Notes under the pieces: generated by a model
What the model saw: only the letters and a program-made list of their open reading frames with translations
Told to the model about the DNA's origin: nothing
Databases searched by the model: none
In this document: positions 5,023 through 58,486 of the stretch, piece after piece
How positions within the stretch are numbered: the stretch's first letter is position 1
Layout: every line of letters begins with the position of its first letter
Program-made: the position numbers and the translations under genes
Sequence record: PZ154895.1
Length of the DNA: 64,000 nucleotides
Reading direction: 5' to 3' (one strand)
Origin: a phage

Positions 5023-5071
5023 TACTTGAAAATAATAAATACCCTTATCTATTCAAGGTAAGGGTTTTATT

Positions 5072-15612: not shown

Positions 15613-17297
15613 AGAATTTTAAACTAAACCGAGTTAGGTATCAAAATATAATGTCAGTAGGTGGAAATCCTATTGACATTCAACTAGATAAGGTTCAAAA
15701 AACTCTTATTACTGGGCGAAATGGTGGTGGTAAGTCTACTATGTTAGAAGCCATCACATTTGGGCTTTTTGGCAAGCCATTTCGTGATGTAAAGAAAGGT
15801 CAATTAATAAACAGCACAAATAAGAAAGAACTTTTAGTTGAACTGTGGATGGAATATGATGAGAAAAAGTACTATATCAAAAGAGGACAAAAACCAAACG
15901 TTTTCGAAATCACCGTTAACGGTACACGTCTTAATGAATCTGCCAGCAGTAAAGATTTCCAAGCAGAATTTGAACAGCTTATCGGAATGTCATATGCCAG
16001 TTTCAAGCAGATTGTTGTCCTTGGTACAGCAGGGTATACCCCTTTCATGGGTTTGTCGACCCCTGCGCGAAGAAAGCTTGTGGAAGACCTGCTCGAGGTA
16101 GGAACATTAGCTGAAATGGATAAGCTTAATAAAGCACTAATACGTGAATTAAATTCACAAAACCAAGTGCTTGATGTTAAAAAAGATAGTATTATCCAAC
16201 AAATTAAAATATATAATGATAACGTTGAACGCCAGAAAAAATTAACTGGTGATAACCTTACTCGTCTGCAGAACATGTATGATGATTTGGCAAAAGAAGC
16301 TAGAACGTTAAAATCGGAAATAGAAGAAGCTAATGAAAGATTAGTTAATATTGTTTTGGATGAAGACCCGACTGATGCATTTAATAAAATCGGTCAAGAA
16401 GCATTTTTAATTAAATCAAAAATTGACTCGTATAATAAAGTCATTAATATGTATCACGAAGGTGGATTATGTCCAACCTGTTTGTCACAATTAAGTTCCG
16501 GTGATAAAGTTGTTTCTAAAATTAAAGATAAAGTTTCTGAATGCACGCATTCATTTGAACAGCTTTCAACACATCGTGATAATTTAAAAGTTCTTGTTGA
16601 TGAATACCGAGATAATATTAAAACCCAGCAGACGTTGGCAAATGATATTCGCAATAAAAAGCAATCCTTAATCACGACGGTAGATAAAGCTAAAAAAGTT
16701 AAAGCGGCTATAGAAAAAGCATCATCTGAGTTTATTGACCATGCTGATGAAATAGCACTGCTTCAAGAAGAACTTGATAAAATTGTTAAGACAAAAACTA
16801 ATTTAGTAATGGAAAAATACCACAGAGGAATTTTGACTGATATGCTCAAAGATTCTGGTATTAAAGGTGCTATTATTAAAAAGTACATTCCATTATTTAA
16901 TAAGCAGATTAACCATTATCTTAAAATAATGGAAGCGGATTATGTGTTTACATTAGATGAAGAATTTAATGAAACAATTAAATCCCGTGGTCGTGAAGAT
17001 TTTAGTTATGCTTCATTTAGTCAAGGTGAAAAAGCACGAATTGATATTGCTCTTTTATTTACTTGGCGTGATATTGCTGAAAAAGTTTCAGGTGTTAAAA
17101 TAAGCTGTTTATTTCTTGATGAAGTATATGACGGTGCATTTGATGCTGAAGGTATTAAAAATGTAGCTAAAATTTTAGATGGTTTGAAGGATACCAACTT
17201 CTTCATAATTTCGCATAAAGACCATGACCCACAAGAATATGGTCAGCATATTCAGATGGAAAAAGTTGGTAGATTTAGTTTAGCTAAGATTAGCTAG
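15609..17297 (+). CDS. 46: recombination endonuclease subunit gp46 (Rad50/SbcC-like ATPase)
   Basis: 562 aa; Walker A GRNGGGKST; CPTC zinc hook; matches T4 gp46; GTG start. Confidence 0.93.
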   Translation: MKNFKLNRVRYQNIMSVGGNPIDIQLDKVQKTLITGRNGGGKSTMLEAITFGLFGKPFRDVKKGQLINSTNKKELLVELWMEYDEKKYYIKRGQKPNVFEITVNGTRLNESASSKDFQAEFEQLIGMSYASFKQIVVLGTAGYTPFMGLSTPARRKLVEDLLEVGTLAEMDKLNKALIRELNSQNQVLDVKKDSIIQQIKIYNDNVERQKKLTGDNLTRLQNMYDDLAKEARTLKSEIEEANERLVNIVLDEDPTDAFNKIGQEAFLIKSKIDSYNKVINMYHEGGLCPTCLSQLSSGDKVVSKIKDKVSECTHSFEQLSTHRDNLKVLVDEYRDNIKTQQTLANDIRNKKQSLITTVDKAKKVKAAIEKASSEFIDHADEIALLQEELDKIVKTKTNLVMEKYHRGILTDMLKDSGIKGAIIKKYIPLFNKQINHYLKIMEADYVFTLDEEFNETIKSRGREDFSYASFSQGEKARIDIALLFTWRDIAEKVSGVKISCLFLDEVYDGAFDAEGIKNVAKILDGLKDTNFFIISHKDHDPQEYGQHIQMEKVGRFSLAKIS

Positions 17298-18006
17298 GTT
17301 TATATTTACAGTTATCATTATGCCATCTTGATAAATTTCCGAAAGTGGTAACTTTACCACAATGGACGCAAGTACCAGTCTTTTCAGTTTTCTTGCGTCC
17401 ATTTGGATTTTTCTTGCAGAAATTTCTATGCGCTGCGATAACGCATTTCTTGCCTATCATTCCACAGAATTCGCAGGATGTTTCTTCAAGAACGATTGCT
17501 TTAAGCCCGTTTGAGATATTATTTCTGTGTTCTTTAGACATTGGTGGTCTAACTTTAGGATTAGGGTGATTTGGACAGTTATCAAAATGCCAACGATTCA
17601 TATTCCCGCTTAATCCAGACTTACCGCAATGAGGACAAGTTAGTCTTGCTTTATTAGCTACTGCATCAGACATTTTCTTTCGTGTCTCCTGGGAGAATTC
17701 TTTGTTCTTTTCTATTTCCCAGAGTTTACGACGAATCCAACCGAAAGTTTTATTGTTGCGTTTAGCGTATTTCGTGGAAACTGTCATCATGTTAGCAGCA
17801 TAGACTAATTTTGGTTCAGAAGGATAAATTTTTACTAAAAGTTGATGAGCTACATAGTGCTCTTCTGGCGTTAAATCTACTAAGTTTGAAGCATCATCAC
17901 TACCGTTTAAACAGCGTGGTATAATGTGATGAGATTCAGTATAGCAATCAAGTTTTCGAGATTTAGCATTAGAGATTAACTTTTCATAAATTAGTTTATA
18001 ATTCAT
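17290..18006 (-). CDS. HNH homing endonuclease with three C-terminal zinc-finger-like repeats
   Basis: HNH core ESHHIIPR...SNLVDLTPEEHYVAH; three CxxC...W(H)xDNC repeats; AAGGA SD; only minus-strand gene inside the plus-strand replication cluster; 3' end overlaps gene 46 by 8 nt. Confidence 0.75.
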   Translation of the reverse strand: MNYKLIYEKLISNAKSRKLDCYTESHHIIPRCLNGSDDASNLVDLTPEEHYVAHQLLVKIYPSEPKLVYAANMMTVSTKYAKRNNKTFGWIRRKLWEIEKNKEFSQETRKKMSDAVANKARLTCPHCGKSGLSGNMNRWHFDNCPNHPNPKVRPPMSKEHRNNISNGLKAIVLEETSCEFCGMIGKKCVIAAHRNFCKKNPNGRKKTEKTGTCVHCGKVTTFGNLSRWHNDNCKYKPS

Positions 18007-18057
18007 AACATATCCTTTTGATACAGCGAGTGATAAACATATTTATACGGAGGAACT

Positions 18058-25150: not shown

Positions 25151-25402
25151 ATGGAAACTTTAGTAGCAGGTTCAATTTTTATGGTTTTAGTTTCAGGCGT
25201 GTTGGCTATTATTATATACATGCTTCCATGGTTCATCGCCTTGATGCGTGGGTCAAAATCGACAGTAGGAATCTTTTTCACATCTTTACTGTTTAACTGG
25301 TCAATCATTGGTTGGTTTATTACATTTATTTGGTCAATTGCAGGTGAAACTAAAAAATCTGTACAGCAAAATCAAGTAATTATCATCAGAGAGAAGGAAT
25401 GA
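25151..25402 (+). CDS. imm: immunity (superinfection exclusion) membrane protein Imm
   Basis: 83 aa, two hydrophobic helices; position between 43 and 42 as in T4. Confidence 0.85.
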   Translation: METLVAGSIFMVLVSGVLAIIIYMLPWFIALMRGSKSTVGIFFTSLLFNWSIIGWFITFIWSIAGETKKSVQQNQVIIIREKE

Positions 25403-32164: not shown

Positions 32165-33193
32165 ATGTCATCAATACCTTGGATTGATAATGAGTTTGCA
32201 TATCGTGCATTAGCTCATTTACCTAAATTCACACAAGTAAATAATAGTTCAACTTTTAAATTACGGTTTAGATGCCCTGTTTGTGGAGATTCAAAAACCG
32301 ACCAAAATAAAGCCCGTGGATGGTATTATGGCGATAATAATGAAGGAAATATTCATTGTTATAACTGCAACTATCATGCACCAATCGGAATATATTTAAA
32401 GGAGTTTGAACCCGATTTATATCGTGAGTATATCTTTGAAATAAGAAAAGAAAAAGGTAAAAGTCGTCCAGTAGAAAAACCTAAAGAACTTCCTAAACAA
32501 CCTGAGAAGAAAATAATTAAATCTCTTCCGTCATGCATTAGATTAGATAAATTGGCGGAAGACCATCCAATTATAAAATATGTAAAAGCTCGCTGTATTC
32601 CAAAGGATAAATGGAAATATCTTTGGTTTACAACCGAATGGCCTAAATTAGTTAATAGCATAGCACCAGGAACATACAAAAAGGAAATACCTGAGCCTCG
32701 TCTTGTTATTCCAATTTATAATGCTAATGGAAAAGCTGAGTCTTTTCAAGGACGTGCATTAAAGAAAGATGCTCCTCAAAAATATATCACCATCAAAGCT
32801 TATCCTGAAGCAACAAAAATCTATGGCGTTGAACGAGTTAAAGATGGTGATGTATATGTTCTAGAAGGACCTATAGATTCACTTTTTATTGAAAATGGTA
32901 TAGCTATTACGGGCGGTCAATTAGACCTAGAAATTGTTCCATTTAAAGATAGACGTGTGTGGGTTTTGGATAATGAACCTCGTCATCCTGACACTATTAA
33001 ACGAATGACTAAATTAGTTGATGCAGGAGAAAGGGTTATGTTTTGGGACAAATCTCCCTGGAAATCAAAAGATGTTAATGATATGATTAGAAAGGAAGGT
33101 GCAACCCCTGAACAAATTATGGAATATATGAAAAATAATATTGCCCAGGGGTTGATGGCTAAAATGCGGCTATCTAAATATGCTAAGATTTAA
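32165..33193 (+). CDS. 61: DNA primase gp61
   Basis: 342 aa; near-identical to T4 gp61; zinc ribbon CPVCGD...CYNC; TOPRIM region. Confidence 0.95.
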   Translation: MSSIPWIDNEFAYRALAHLPKFTQVNNSSTFKLRFRCPVCGDSKTDQNKARGWYYGDNNEGNIHCYNCNYHAPIGIYLKEFEPDLYREYIFEIRKEKGKSRPVEKPKELPKQPEKKIIKSLPSCIRLDKLAEDHPIIKYVKARCIPKDKWKYLWFTTEWPKLVNSIAPGTYKKEIPEPRLVIPIYNANGKAESFQGRALKKDAPQKYITIKAYPEATKIYGVERVKDGDVYVLEGPIDSLFIENGIAITGGQLDLEIVPFKDRRVWVLDNEPRHPDTIKRMTKLVDAGERVMFWDKSPWKSKDVNDMIRKEGATPEQIMEYMKNNIAQGLMAKMRLSKYAKI

Positions 33194-33390
33194 ATTAACC
33201 CAACTAAAGCAAATGCTAAATCTACGAATGTATCAAGAGTAATTACTGGAATATTAACACCATGAGCAATAGCAATTGGTGATAAAACAAAATTCCAAAG
33301 TAAAATTCCTACCATAGCAGAAATAGTAAAAGCTATACGTTTTTTATTACCTTTTATGGCATTAACAAGTGCCATTAATTTTTGTACCAT
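33190..33390 (-). CDS. small membrane protein on opposite strand (66 aa)
   Basis: ORF track; strong AGGAGG SD on minus strand; two hydrophobic segments; stop overlaps gene 61 stop. Confidence 0.45.
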   Translation of the reverse strand: MVQKLMALVNAIKGNKKRIAFTISAMVGILLWNFVLSPIAIAHGVNIPVITLDTFVDLAFALVGLI

Positions 33391-33461
33391 ATGTCCTCCT
33401 TATTGCTTTATATATTTATTGTATAATTAATCTACTAACCCATGAATTGAAAGGAAAAATA

Positions 33462-33980
33462 ATGGCATACTTTAATGAATGTTCACAACTGATCGAAGGC
33501 GCTGATAAAGCTCAAAATGAATACTGGGATATTCTCGGTGATGAAAAAGACCCACTACAGGTTATGCTTGATATGCAGAAATCTTTGCAGGTTCGTTTAG
33601 CTAAAGATAAACCTGAATATAACCGTCATCCTGATGATTTGGCTACTGCAGGCGAAGTTGTTGATTGGCTGCGTAATCAAAAAGATTATATTGACGATGA
33701 ATTCCGTGAACTTCTGACTTCTCTTGGCGGCATGAGCAATGGTGAAAAAGATGCATCTGCTGTATGGAAGCCTTGGAAAGCTCAACATGGTGAACGCCGT
33801 GAAACTCTAATTACTGATTTGTCTCCGCAAGATCAGTTGGAAATTAAATTCGAAATGATTGATATTCTTCATTTCGTTCTGAACATGTTCCAAGGTCTTG
33901 GTCTTACGGCTGAAGAAATCTTTAAACTTTATTATCTGAAAAATGCTGAAAACTTCGCTCGTCAAGACCGAGGTTATTGA
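33462..33980 (+). CDS. 56: dCTPase/dUTPase gp56
   Basis: ORF track 33369..33980; internal ATG at 33462 gives MAYFNECSQLIEG... as in T4 gp56. Confidence 0.9.
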   Translation: MAYFNECSQLIEGADKAQNEYWDILGDEKDPLQVMLDMQKSLQVRLAKDKPEYNRHPDDLATAGEVVDWLRNQKDYIDDEFRELLTSLGGMSNGEKDASAVWKPWKAQHGERRETLITDLSPQDQLEIKFEMIDILHFVLNMFQGLGLTAEEIFKLYYLKNAENFARQDRGY

Positions 33981-34180
33981 TGGCTCGTTTAAATAAACGC
34001 CAGCTTAAGAAAGCCCGCAAGAAACGTATTGACCAGCTATTTAAAAATTATGATAAGGAGCTCGTATGTGAGCTCTTATCTAATCAGCTCCGCAAAGCTC
34101 ACACAATTAAAACTGGACATATACCAGGTAAGTGGGTGCATGAAGAAGCCTTAAAATTAATTATAGAGCATTCAAAATGA
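33980..34180 (+). CDS. hypothetical basic protein
   Basis: ORF track 33977..34180 (TTG); ATG at 33980. Confidence 0.4.
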   Translation: MARLNKRQLKKARKKRIDQLFKNYDKELVCELLSNQLRKAHTIKTGHIPGKWVHEEALKLIIEHSK

Positions 34181-34386
34181 AATTTGATTTTTATGCATGG
34201 CAAAAAGCCGGTAGACCTGCTAGTCGAGCATTTGGTTCTGATGGATATAATATTAGAGCCCATTGGAAGTTTAATGCTCCAGCCGATTATTCTCCGGTAA
34301 TTATTAATGGTGATGTTGTTATATTAACTAAAATTGGATATTTTAACGTTCCGCGAGAATTTATTATAAATAATCATGTAATTTAA
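34177..34386 (+). CDS. hypothetical protein (69 aa)
   Basis: ORF track; ATGA overlap. Confidence 0.4.
   Translation: MKFDFYAWQKAGRPASRAFGSDGYNIRAHWKFNAPADYSPVIINGDVVILTKIGYFNVPREFIINNHVI
34365..34372 (+). promoter_or_regulatory. late promoter TATAAATA upstream of soc
   Basis: TATAAATA about 30 nt upstream of soc ATG (approx.). Confidence 0.5.
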
Positions 34387-34402
34387 ATAAAAGGAGAATT
34401 AC

Positions 34403-57829: not shown

Positions 57830-58486
57830 TTATTTAGCCCTTCCTAATATTCTGGCCGCCTGAGCACATATTGATTCAAGGCGGTCATTACTTATATGAT
57901 CATTTCTATACCAGTACATGGTTATTGTTCCAGCATAGATATTATCCAAATTGAAATATGGACAACTGTACATGTAATTTATTTCGGGAGTAGGCTTTTT
58001 AGTTGGTAAAAAAGCAAATTTTGAATTGGAATAATAGTGACGTCCATTTAAATGAACTGTATATTCATCCATAGTTTTATCAACAGGATATCCTCCAAGT
58101 GATTTTTCAGTTATTGTTGAAGGTAATCTTCCTTCGTATGCTATAATATCAACAAAATAGTTTAAGTTTTTAGGGCGGAAAGAATACACCGCACTAAAGT
58201 CTGCCTCAGATGATATATGAACTATCTGGAGTTGTTCCAGGGCGACAGATTCAAAGCGTGCAGTTCTTTCCTTTTCAATAATTTCACTGTATGTTTCATA
58301 CTTTGATTGCTTATAGTACTCAAAGAAACTATCTCCCCTATACCAAACAATCGCCATCATAAATAAAAGAATTACGACAGCTACTCGGGAAGCAAGAACT
58401 TTCCCGGTAGCGTTATCTTTGAACAAGCGATCTAGAACACCAAATAGAATATCAGAGGGCGAAAATGATATTCTAGGTGCTGCCAT
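57830..58486 (-). CDS. t: holin T
   Basis: 218 aa; near-identical to T4 holin; single N-proximal TM; AAGGAGGG SD and TATAAATA upstream on minus strand. Confidence 0.92.
   Translation of the reverse strand: MAAPRISFSPSDILFGVLDRLFKDNATGKVLASRVAVVILLFMMAIVWYRGDSFFEYYKQSKYETYSEIIEKERTARFESVALEQLQIVHISSEADFSAVYSFRPKNLNYFVDIIAYEGRLPSTITEKSLGGYPVDKTMDEYTVHLNGRHYYSNSKFAFLPTKKPTPEINYMYSCPYFNLDNIYAGTITMYWYRNDHISNDRLESICAQAARILGRAK

What the first reader, a model, noticed from the sequence alone, without database searches (positions are those of the whole stretch)
33190..33390. Opposite-strand small membrane protein with strong SD between primase (61) and dCTPase (56)
A 66-aa two-helix hydrophobic ORF lies on the minus strand in an otherwise strictly plus-strand early region. 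It has a near-consensus SD (AGGAGG, 5 nt spacing), and its stop overlaps the gene 61 stop. Antisense placement means it needs its own promoter and would be expressed against read-through early transcription, which is unusual enough to suggest separate timing (late?) or an acquired gene.
Basis: seen in the sequence. Interest (0 to 1): 0.45.

Follow-up and report, generated by a model that had tools for sequence, protein, structure and literature searches.

The report
Overlooked late membrane-protein gene of T-even phages
The small opposite-strand ORF between the primase and dCTPase genes is a real, conserved T4-family gene (called dam.1 in one T4 record). It most likely encodes a single-pass inner-membrane protein made late in infection from its own late promoter; its function is still unknown.

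Summary
A 66-aa ATG ORF lies at 33190..33390 on the minus strand, preceded by TAAGGAGG, and it ends stop-to-stop against primase gene 61.

It is not a chance ORF and not a recent acquisition. It belongs to PHROG 2024 (unknown function). It is annotated 'dam.1' in phage T4T and 'RB32ORF030w' in RB14, but it is missing from the T4 RefSeq record even though the ORF is intact there.

tblastn finds the family in about 800 phage records. In the nine T-even-like genera whose locus I fetched, it is always convergent on gene 61. Length is kept at 61-74 aa and dN/dS is about 0.05-0.7, while synonymous sites are saturated between genera.

AATAAATA, the commonest variant of the T4 late promoter TATAAATA, sits 22 nt upstream of the ATG. 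The core ATAAATA recurs in 13 of 15 otherwise unalignable upstream contexts, and it is about 4-fold depleted in the window overall.

The protein has one strong transmembrane helix after a basic patch and a weakly hydrophobic C-terminal helix, so N-in/C-out single-pass topology is more likely than a two-helix hairpin. No homologue with a known function or solved structure was found.

Verdict: an ordinary, already catalogued hypothetical gene of modest interest, because it is invisible in T4 omics studies that use the RefSeq annotation.

The parts
33190..33390 (-). Coding sequence of the 66-aa small membrane protein. It is the orthologue of T4T dam.1 / RB32ORF030w and a member of PHROG 2024. It is 100% identical to proteins of phages ime09 and SHFML-26.
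   Evidence: Purifying selection is shown.
33395..33402 (-). Shine-Dalgarno sequence TAAGGAGG, 4 nt before the ATG.
   Evidence: A GGAGG-type SD is present in all orthologues.
33413..33420 (-). Predicted gp55-type late promoter box AATAAATA, the A(-13) variant of TATAAATA. It lies 22 nt upstream of the ATG.
   Evidence: Conservation is shown. Variant frequency comes from PMC2988020. It was not tested experimentally.
33391..33407 (-). Predicted 17-nt mRNA leader. The +1 position is inferred at about 33407, 6 nt after the box.
   Evidence: Inferred from the box spanning -13 to -6 (PMC2988020) and the sequence.
33401..33427 (+). Divergent MotA-type middle promoter for gene 56: tatTGCTTTA (33401-33410), an 11-nt spacer, then TATAAT (33422-33427). 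The late box of the small ORF lies inside its spacer.
   Evidence: Sequence. Consensus and 12+/-1 bp spacing from PMC2988021. The annotators of phage fPS-2 predict a middle promoter at the same place.
33356..33385 (+). Terminator-like hairpin plus U-run on the early strand, inside codons 6-12 of the small ORF. It is a candidate end of the gene 61 transcription unit.
   Evidence: dG -8.9 kcal/mol, z -2.4. It is the same in T4 and is annotated as a terminator in fPS-2. It is not conserved in Mosigvirus or Gaprivervirus.
32165..33193 (+). Gene 61 (DNA primase). It is convergent with the small ORF and overlaps it by 4 nt.
33462..33980 (+). Gene 56 (dCTPase), divergent from the small ORF. The real start is the ATG at 33462; the GTG at 33369 listed by the ORF finder is not the start.

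Best explanation
The ORF is a bona fide, vertically inherited gene of T-even-type phages (Tevenvirinae). It is the gene annotated dam.1 in T4T.

Expression (inferred from sequence signals). After DNA replication starts, host RNA polymerase carrying the phage late sigma gp55, with gp33 and the gp45 clamp, initiates at the variant late promoter AATAAATA (33413-33420, minus strand). This gives an mRNA with a leader of about 17 nt and a near-perfect Shine-Dalgarno site. No terminator follows, so the transcript continues antisense into primase gene 61. The early and middle transcription that crosses the ORF in the other direction has by then largely ceased.

Product (inferred from sequence and model). 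The 66-aa protein inserts into the inner membrane. Its short amphipathic N-terminus and KGNKKR patch stay in the cytoplasm. There is one transmembrane helix at about residues 19-42. A tail of about 24 residues lies on the periplasmic side and ends in an amphipathic, weakly hydrophobic helix.

Action (speculative). The only family-wide invariant residues are W32, N33, P38, G44 and P48, in the outer half of the TM and just after it. A buried Asn, plus a buried Asp in the b-type paralogues, points to helix-helix association. That could be self-association or, more likely, binding to a conserved phage or host membrane protein, so that the protein acts as a small late-stage modulator of an envelope process. 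My first guess is lysis timing or lysis inhibition; superinfection exclusion or membrane-bound head assembly are alternatives.

Shown: the ORF, its signals, its conservation and the purifying selection on it. Inferred: late timing, topology and partner binding. Unknown: the biological role.
For: - Reality of the gene: PHROG 2024 match at E 5e-31. It is found in 693 phage records with the a-type query and 130 with the b-type query. In every locus fetched, in at least nine genera, it lies next to and convergent on gene 61.
- The ORF is intact in T4 NC_000866 at 17738..17938 although not annotated there.
- Selection: dN/dS is 0.13-0.68 for the a-type and 0.05 for the b-type. pS is 0.58-0.76 (at or near saturation) between genera, while the length stays 61-74 aa.
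- Late promoter: only 9 ATAAATA heptamers occur in the window, against 38 +/- 6 expected.
- Six of those nine lie 18-33 nt upstream of an SD plus ATG on the same strand. These are gene 49, soc, gene 36, holin t, a homing endonuclease and this ORF.
- The core is conserved in 13 of 15 upstream contexts whose flanks no longer align.
- A(-13) variants make up 9 of 50 listed T4 late promoters (PMC2988020).
- No sigma-70-like promoter was found in front of the ORF on the minus strand.
- No minus-strand terminator was found for 4.5 kb downstream.
- Topology: one strong TM, a basic patch on its N-terminal side, and a marginal C-terminal helix that is not hydrophobic in b-type members.
Against: - No transcript, ribosome-profiling or proteomic evidence could be obtained. 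The T4 dRNA-seq TSS table exists but is not held as text. The T4 omics study counted only NC_000866 features, which lack this ORF.
- In Tequatrovirus, Mosigvirus and Gaprivervirus the box never has the consensus T at -13, so the promoter may be weak.
- Two lineages lack the heptamer: metagenomic L022 has TATTAATA and Gelderlandvirus CGG4-1 has ATTAAATA.
- In some genera the box is only 12-16 nt from the ATG, which would leave a very short leader.
- The functional proposal rests only on residue conservation. There is no homologue of known function, no Pfam or NCBIfam hit, no PDB hit and no similarity to Imm or holin T.
- The AlphaFold model is of moderate confidence and could not settle topology.
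Confidence: 0.8

Rival explanations
1. It is a chance ORF. A 66-codon open frame arises easily on the antisense strand of AT-rich DNA. The apparent conservation would then reflect constraints on the DNA itself, such as the terminator hairpin, the end of gene 61 or the promoters of gene 56.
For: - Many antisense ORFs of similar or greater length occur in the window.
- A terminator-like hairpin for the early strand lies inside the ORF.
- The T4 RefSeq and several other records do not annotate it.
Against: - Other long antisense ORFs have no PHROG match, whereas this one matches at 5e-31.
- The frame and length are kept across genera with saturated synonymous sites, and dN/dS is below 1.
- A strong SD is present in every lineage.
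- The hairpin is not conserved outside Tequatrovirus, while the protein is.
- The ORF overlaps gene 61 by only 4 nt.
Confidence: 0.03
2. It is a recently acquired or mobile 'moron' gene inserted between genes 61 and 56.
For: - It has the opposite orientation and its own promoter.
- Its GC content is 28.9%, against 34.9% for the window.
- The adjoining space towards gene 56 is variable: dam in T4, a homing endonuclease in fPS-2, extra ORFs in Kanagawavirus.
Against: - It has the same position and orientation in at least nine genera whose primases are only 60-74% identical.
- A profile search of 1.84 billion representative proteins finds the family nowhere else.
- The low GC is what is expected for an Ile/Leu/Phe/Lys/Asn-rich membrane protein.
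- The variable DNA always lies upstream of the ORF's promoter and never separates it from gene 61.
Confidence: 0.04
3. It is a holin or pinholin-like hole former, as one UniProt entry names a family member.
For: - It is a small, very hydrophobic protein with polar residues inside the TM.
- It is predicted to be expressed late.
- UniProt A0A482MZV5 is named 'Holin'.
Against: - The name is an unsupported automatic or submitter label; every other member read in the cluster look-up is named 'hypothetical protein'.
- There is no holin Pfam, PHROG or NCBIfam match.
- The C-terminus is hydrophobic rather than charged and hydrophilic.
- There is probably only one true TM.
- The window already carries the T4-type holin t with a consensus late promoter.
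- From established T4 genetics (my own knowledge), t-null mutants do not lyse, so no second sufficient holin exists.
Confidence: 0.07
4. The main function is RNA-level. The late transcript that starts here runs antisense through primase gene 61 and down-regulates it late in infection, and the peptide is secondary.
For: - The stop-to-stop convergent arrangement with gene 61 is kept in most lineages.
- There is no minus-strand terminator for 4.5 kb.
- T4 is known to transcribe both strands at several sites at different times (PMC2988020).
Against: - The amino-acid sequence is under purifying selection, and invariant residues cluster in a TM motif. An RNA-only role would not require this.
- An untranslated antisense RNA would probably be ended by Rho (my inference).
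- The two roles are not mutually exclusive.
Confidence: 0.06

Closest known systems
T4T gene dam.1 / RB32ORF030w / RB69ORF029w (PHROG 2024, 'unknown function')
   Same: It is the same gene. It is 94-100% identical within Tequatrovirus, and the window protein is identical to those of ime09 and SHFML-26. It has the same position, convergent on gene 61.
   Different: Nothing in the protein differs. In T4 the dam gene lies between the ORF and gene 56, whereas in the window gene 56 follows directly.
Canonical T4 late genes driven by gp55-type TATAAATA promoters (for example soc, t, 36 and the late transcript of gene 49)
   Same: The layout is the same: box, then 18-33 nt, then SD and ATG. Gene 49 in this window uses the same A(-13) variant, AATAAATA. 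The variant class is documented in PMC2988020.
   Different: The box is non-consensus at -13. The gene is embedded, in the opposite orientation, in a block of early and middle replication genes. Its late timing has not been shown experimentally.
Small T4 envelope proteins: Imm (superinfection immunity), RI (antiholin), holin T, i-spanin PseT.3
   Same: All are small inner-membrane proteins with a cytoplasmic N-terminus and a periplasmic C-terminal part, and they act through protein-protein contacts in the envelope (established T4 knowledge).
   Different: No sequence relationship was found: hhalign gives probability 1% against Imm and 0.2% against T. The periplasmic part here is only about 24 residues. 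No genetic phenotype is known.
Class II / pinholin-type holins (such as S21-68) and the T7 gp17.5 type
   Same: Similar size (60-75 aa), high hydrophobicity and late expression.
   Different: It has no charged C-terminal tail, probably a single TM, no linkage to an endolysin and no family match.

Membership tests
PHROG 2024 / dam.1 family | Full-length sequence homology to the family profile | tested here: met
   E 5.4e-31, residues 2-66 against profile positions 1-65 of 65. The b-type, Mosigvirus and Gaprivervirus members hit the same PHROG.
PHROG 2024 / dam.1 family | Conserved position: convergent on the 3' end of primase gene 61, on the side towards gene 56 | tested here: met
T4 late genes (gp55/gp33/gp45-dependent) | TATAAATA-type box about one helical turn upstream of the start site, with no -35 element | tested here: met
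   AATAAATA lies at 33413-33420 on the minus strand. A(-13) variants are 9 of 50 listed T4 late promoters. The heptamer is conserved in 13 of 15 upstream contexts and is 4-fold depleted genome-wide.
T4 late genes (gp55/gp33/gp45-dependent) | The transcript appears only after replication starts and depends on gp55/gp33 | not testable with these tools
   The T4 dRNA-seq TSS table is not held. The RNA-seq and proteome study counted only NC_000866 features.
Holins | At least one TM domain and small size | tested here: met
Holins | Highly charged, hydrophilic C-terminal domain | tested here: not met
   The C-terminus is ...FVDLAFALVGLI, with no basic residues. The only basic patch is N-terminal to the TM.
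Holins | Match to a holin sequence family, or linkage to an endolysin or lysis cassette | tested here: not met
   No Pfam or NCBIfam hit, and the PHROG is of unknown function. The neighbours are the primase and dCTPase genes. The T-type holin is elsewhere, at 57830..58486.
Holins | Forms membrane lesions that release endolysin | not testable with these tools
   Needs an experiment.
Imm / Sp superinfection-exclusion proteins | Sequence homology | tested here: not met
   hhalign against the window's 83-aa ORF at 25151..25399, which I take to be Imm from its size and position (not checked against a family library), gives probability 1%. A profile search of 1.84e9 proteins finds only the ORF's own family.
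Bitopic (N-in/C-out) inner-membrane proteins | One hydrophobic segment of at least 19 residues, with the positive charge cluster on its N-terminal side | tested here: met
   The best 19-mer has dG -10.4 kcal/mol. KGNKKR precedes it. The C-terminal helix is marginal and is non-hydrophobic in b-type members. The actual topology has not been tested.

The most novel reading that the evidence does not exclude
The dam.1 family could be a missing, conserved component of a late envelope process of T-even phages. One example would be a small transmembrane partner of the holin T / antiholin RI system that tunes lysis timing or lysis inhibition. Another would be a binder of a conserved host inner-membrane protein. 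It would have escaped 60 years of T4 genetics and recent omics because it is tiny and absent from the reference annotation. A second layer could be that its late transcript, which has no terminator, silences primase gene 61 by antisense transcription.
Probability: 0.15. Interest if true: 0.65.

Novelty: already known. Interest (0 to 1): 0.3.

Why it matters
T4 is a reference organism, yet its RefSeq record (NC_000866) does not list this ORF. A transcriptome and proteome study that counts reads per annotated feature of that record therefore cannot see it.

The gene is conserved, selected, apparently late-expressed and membrane-targeted across the T-even group, so it is a cheap and well-defined target for a knockout or tagging experiment. 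It should also be added to the T4 annotation.

Beyond that it is an ordinary hypothetical phage gene. Nothing in the evidence points to a new kind of system.

Tried and rejected
- Pfam, NCBIfam, PDB sequence search and Foldseek against PDB and BFVD found nothing beyond the ORF's own family. BFVD did point to the distant Kanagawavirus member CIP9, which I then confirmed by locus inspection.
- A profile search of 1.84 billion representative proteins gave only 6 clusters, all the same family.
- hhalign against the presumed Imm ORF and against holin T of the window found no relationship.
- Literature searches for 'dam.1', 'RB69ORF029w' and 'RB32ORF030w' returned zero papers.
- Broader searches for T4 Ribo-seq, TSS or antisense work gave nothing specific.
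- Nolan 2006 and Petrov 2010 do not discuss the ORF. Miller 2003 is not held.
- The T4 dRNA-seq TSS table is not available as text.
- The search for related loci with the divergent alignment failed. With the close alignment it gave only 7 loci.
- A sigma-70 promoter scan found nothing convincing in front of the ORF.
- I considered whether the terminator-like hairpin explains the conservation and rejected this, because the hairpin is not conserved outside Tequatrovirus.
- The PADLOC library was not searched.

Full report
**What is there.** The window is a Tequatrovirus (T4-like) genome segment. The 1.4 kb around the finding is 99.5% identical to Shigella phage SH-2 and 97-99% identical to hundreds of T-even relatives. 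On the minus strand, 33190..33390 is an ATG-initiated ORF of 66 codons. Immediately upstream the minus strand reads TAAGGAGG-ACAT-ATG, an 8-nt match to the anti-Shine-Dalgarno sequence with a 4-nt spacer. The gene 61 (primase) stop codon is at 33191-33193. The ORF's stop is the complement of 33190-33192, so the two genes converge and share 4 nt.

**It is a real gene, and a known one.**
- The protein matches PHROG 2024 ('unknown function') over its full length at E 5e-31. It has no Pfam or NCBIfam match.
- tblastn finds it in 693 phage records, and in 687 of them at least 80% of the query is covered. About 500 are Tequatrovirus at 90% identity or more, and about 190 are Mosigvirus or Gaprivervirus at about 50% identity.
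- It is annotated 'dam.1' in phage T4T and 'RB32ORF030w, similar to RB69ORF029w' in RB14. Elsewhere it is 'hypothetical protein'.
- In the T4 RefSeq record NC_000866 the ORF is intact at 17738..17938 but is not annotated.
- Gaprivervirus VR25 and TH41 carry a second, diverged tandem copy, which I call the b-type.
- Searching with the b-type finds 130 more records in Dhakavirus (JS98), Marfavirus, Kanagawavirus and others.
- Inspection of the gene 61 to gene 56 junction adds Gelderlandvirus and Jiaodavirus members.
- In every case the ORF is convergent on the 3' end of gene 61.
- It is absent from that site in Krischvirus, Pseudotevenvirus, Aeromonas phage 31 and Serratia phage 92A1.
- A profile search of 1.84 billion representative proteins finds only this family.

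So it is an old, vertically inherited gene of the T-even group. It is not a recent acquisition.

**Selection.** Across 21 distinct coding sequences the frame and length are kept. Nei-Gojobori dN/dS is 0.13-0.68 for the a-type and 0.05 for the b-type. The synonymous proportions between genera (pS 0.58-0.76) are at or near saturation, while 48-54% of residues stay identical. Other long minus-strand ORFs in the same early region have no PHROG match at all.

**How it is expressed.**
- AATAAATA lies at 33413-33420 on the minus strand, 22 nt before the ATG.
- According to Geiduschek and Kassavetis, 32 of 50 listed T4 late promoters are perfect TATAAATA and nine have A at -13, exactly this variant. 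Late transcripts have either polarity (PMC2988020).
- The heptamer ATAAATA is strongly avoided in the window: 9 copies against 38 +/- 6 expected.
- Six of the nine copies lie 18-33 nt upstream of an SD plus ATG on the same strand. These are gene 49 (also AATAAATA), soc, gene 36, holin t, a homing-endonuclease ORF and this ORF.
- The heptamer recurs upstream of the orthologues in 13 of 15 different upstream contexts whose flanks no longer align.
  - The box is G/A/C-ATAAATA in Tequatrovirus, Mosigvirus, Gaprivervirus, JS98, PEi26 and UTI-K4.
  - It is perfect TATAAATA in Marfa, CIP9 and Q7622.
  - The exceptions are one metagenomic lineage and Gelderlandvirus.
- No sigma-70-like promoter precedes the ORF.

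I therefore infer gp55-dependent late transcription starting near 33407, with a 17-nt leader. This is an inference from signals. No expression data could be retrieved: the T4 dRNA-seq TSS table is not held, and the T4 omics study counted only NC_000866 features.

**Surroundings.**
- The late box sits inside the spacer of a consensus MotA-type middle promoter for gene 56 on the other strand: tatTGCTTTA, then 11 nt, then TATAAT (33401-33427). The consensus and spacing come from PMC2988021, and fPS-2 annotators predict the same promoter.
- On the early strand a hairpin plus U-run (33356-33385, dG -8.9 kcal/mol) lies within codons 6-12 of the ORF and may end the gene 61 unit. It is present in T4 but not in Mosigvirus or Gaprivervirus.
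- On the minus strand no terminator follows the ORF for 4.5 kb, so the late RNA should run antisense into gene 61.
- In T4 the dam gene is inserted between the ORF and gene 56. The window has neither dam nor segF.

**The protein.**
- GRAVY is 1.25 and net charge is +3.
- There is one strong transmembrane segment at about residues 19-42 (Wimley-White -10.4 kcal/mol), preceded by KGNKKR.
- The last 19 residues are only marginally hydrophobic (-2.0) and contain two conserved acidic residues. In the b-type members this part is not hydrophobic at all.
- AlphaFold2 (pLDDT 76) gives helices 2-12, 16-42 and 52-65.
- By the positive-inside rule the likely topology is N-in/C-out, with a periplasmic tail of about 24 residues, rather than a two-helix hairpin.
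- Family-wide invariant residues are W32, N33, P38, G44 and P48, in the outer half of the TM and just beyond it. The b-type adds a buried Asp.
- Polar residues buried in a lone TM helix usually mediate helix-helix association (general membrane-protein knowledge). I therefore propose that the protein works by binding itself or a conserved membrane partner.
- Fold and sequence searches give no functional lead. It is unrelated to the presumed Imm ORF of the window or to holin T.

**What it is not.** The single 'Holin' label in UniProt is unsupported.
- The protein has no charged C-terminal tail.
- It matches no holin family.
- It is not linked to any lysis gene.
- The phage already has the T-type holin with a consensus late promoter.

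Chance-ORF and recent-acquisition readings are contradicted by the conservation data above. An RNA-level role of the late antisense transcript against gene 61 remains possible as an addition, but it cannot explain the protein-level constraint.

**Verdict.** This is an ordinary gene architecture and an already catalogued hypothetical protein family. The residual interest is that a conserved, probably late, membrane-protein gene of the model phage T4 is missing from the reference annotation and has never been studied.

Noticed in passing
window 17290..18006 (-), box at 18040-18047 (-): A 238-aa homing-endonuclease-like ORF (phrog_655, E 9e-69) lies on the minus strand within the plus-strand early block. 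It appears to sit between genes 46 and rpbA/45; those neighbours are assigned from T4 gene order and ORF sizes only. It has a perfect TATAAATA 33 nt before its ATG, so it is a second opposite-strand, apparently late-promoted gene in the early region.
   Followed up: partly
whole window, both strands: The late-promoter core is strongly under-represented. ATAAATA occurs 9 times against 38 +/- 6 expected, and TATAAATA 4 times against 10 +/- 3. Six of the nine heptamers sit in front of genes. This is consistent with selection against stray late promoters.
   Followed up: yes
window 33401-33427 (+) versus 33413-33420 (-): A consensus MotA-box middle promoter for gene 56 and the late box of the small ORF are interleaved back to back, with the late box lying in the middle promoter's spacer. 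The two polymerase forms would occupy the same DNA in opposite directions at different times.
   Followed up: partly
window 33356-33385 (+): A terminator-like hairpin plus U-run for the early strand is embedded in codons 6-12 of the minus-strand ORF. It is identical in T4 and annotated as a terminator in phage fPS-2, but it is not conserved in Mosigvirus or Gaprivervirus.
   Followed up: partly
window 33391-34400 compared with L001 (T4 NC_000866 15606-17934): T4 has dam between the small ORF and gene 56, and segF after gene 56. The window has no dam or segF anywhere in its 64 kb. Gene 56 is instead followed by two small ORFs (33977..34180 and 34177..34386) before soc; relatives label the first of them soc.2. 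The side of the ORF towards gene 56 is a hot spot for gene gain and loss among relatives.
   Followed up: partly
L005 1495-1901 (VR25), L020 (TH41), L006 (TH40): Gaprivervirus carries two tandem paralogues of the family, a-type then b-type. The b-type is translationally close-coupled, starting 8 nt after the a-type stop. TH40 has lost the b copy. Other genera keep only a or only b.
   Followed up: partly
L032 1732-1956 (NC_031065 BI049_gp026); UniProt A0A482MZV5; NC_000866, EF469154, AP014715: Annotation problems in public records. A family member is labelled 'dCTP pyrophosphatase' in Salmonella phage CGG4-1 and another is labelled 'Holin' in UniProt. The ORF is not annotated at all in the T4 RefSeq, JS98 and PEi26 records.
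   Followed up: yes
window 5034-5041 (+): In this phage, gene 49 (endonuclease VII) is preceded by the same A(-13) late-box variant, AATAAATA, 30 nt before its ATG. This gives an internal example of that variant in front of a gene which, from my memory of the literature, has a late transcript in T4.
   Followed up: no
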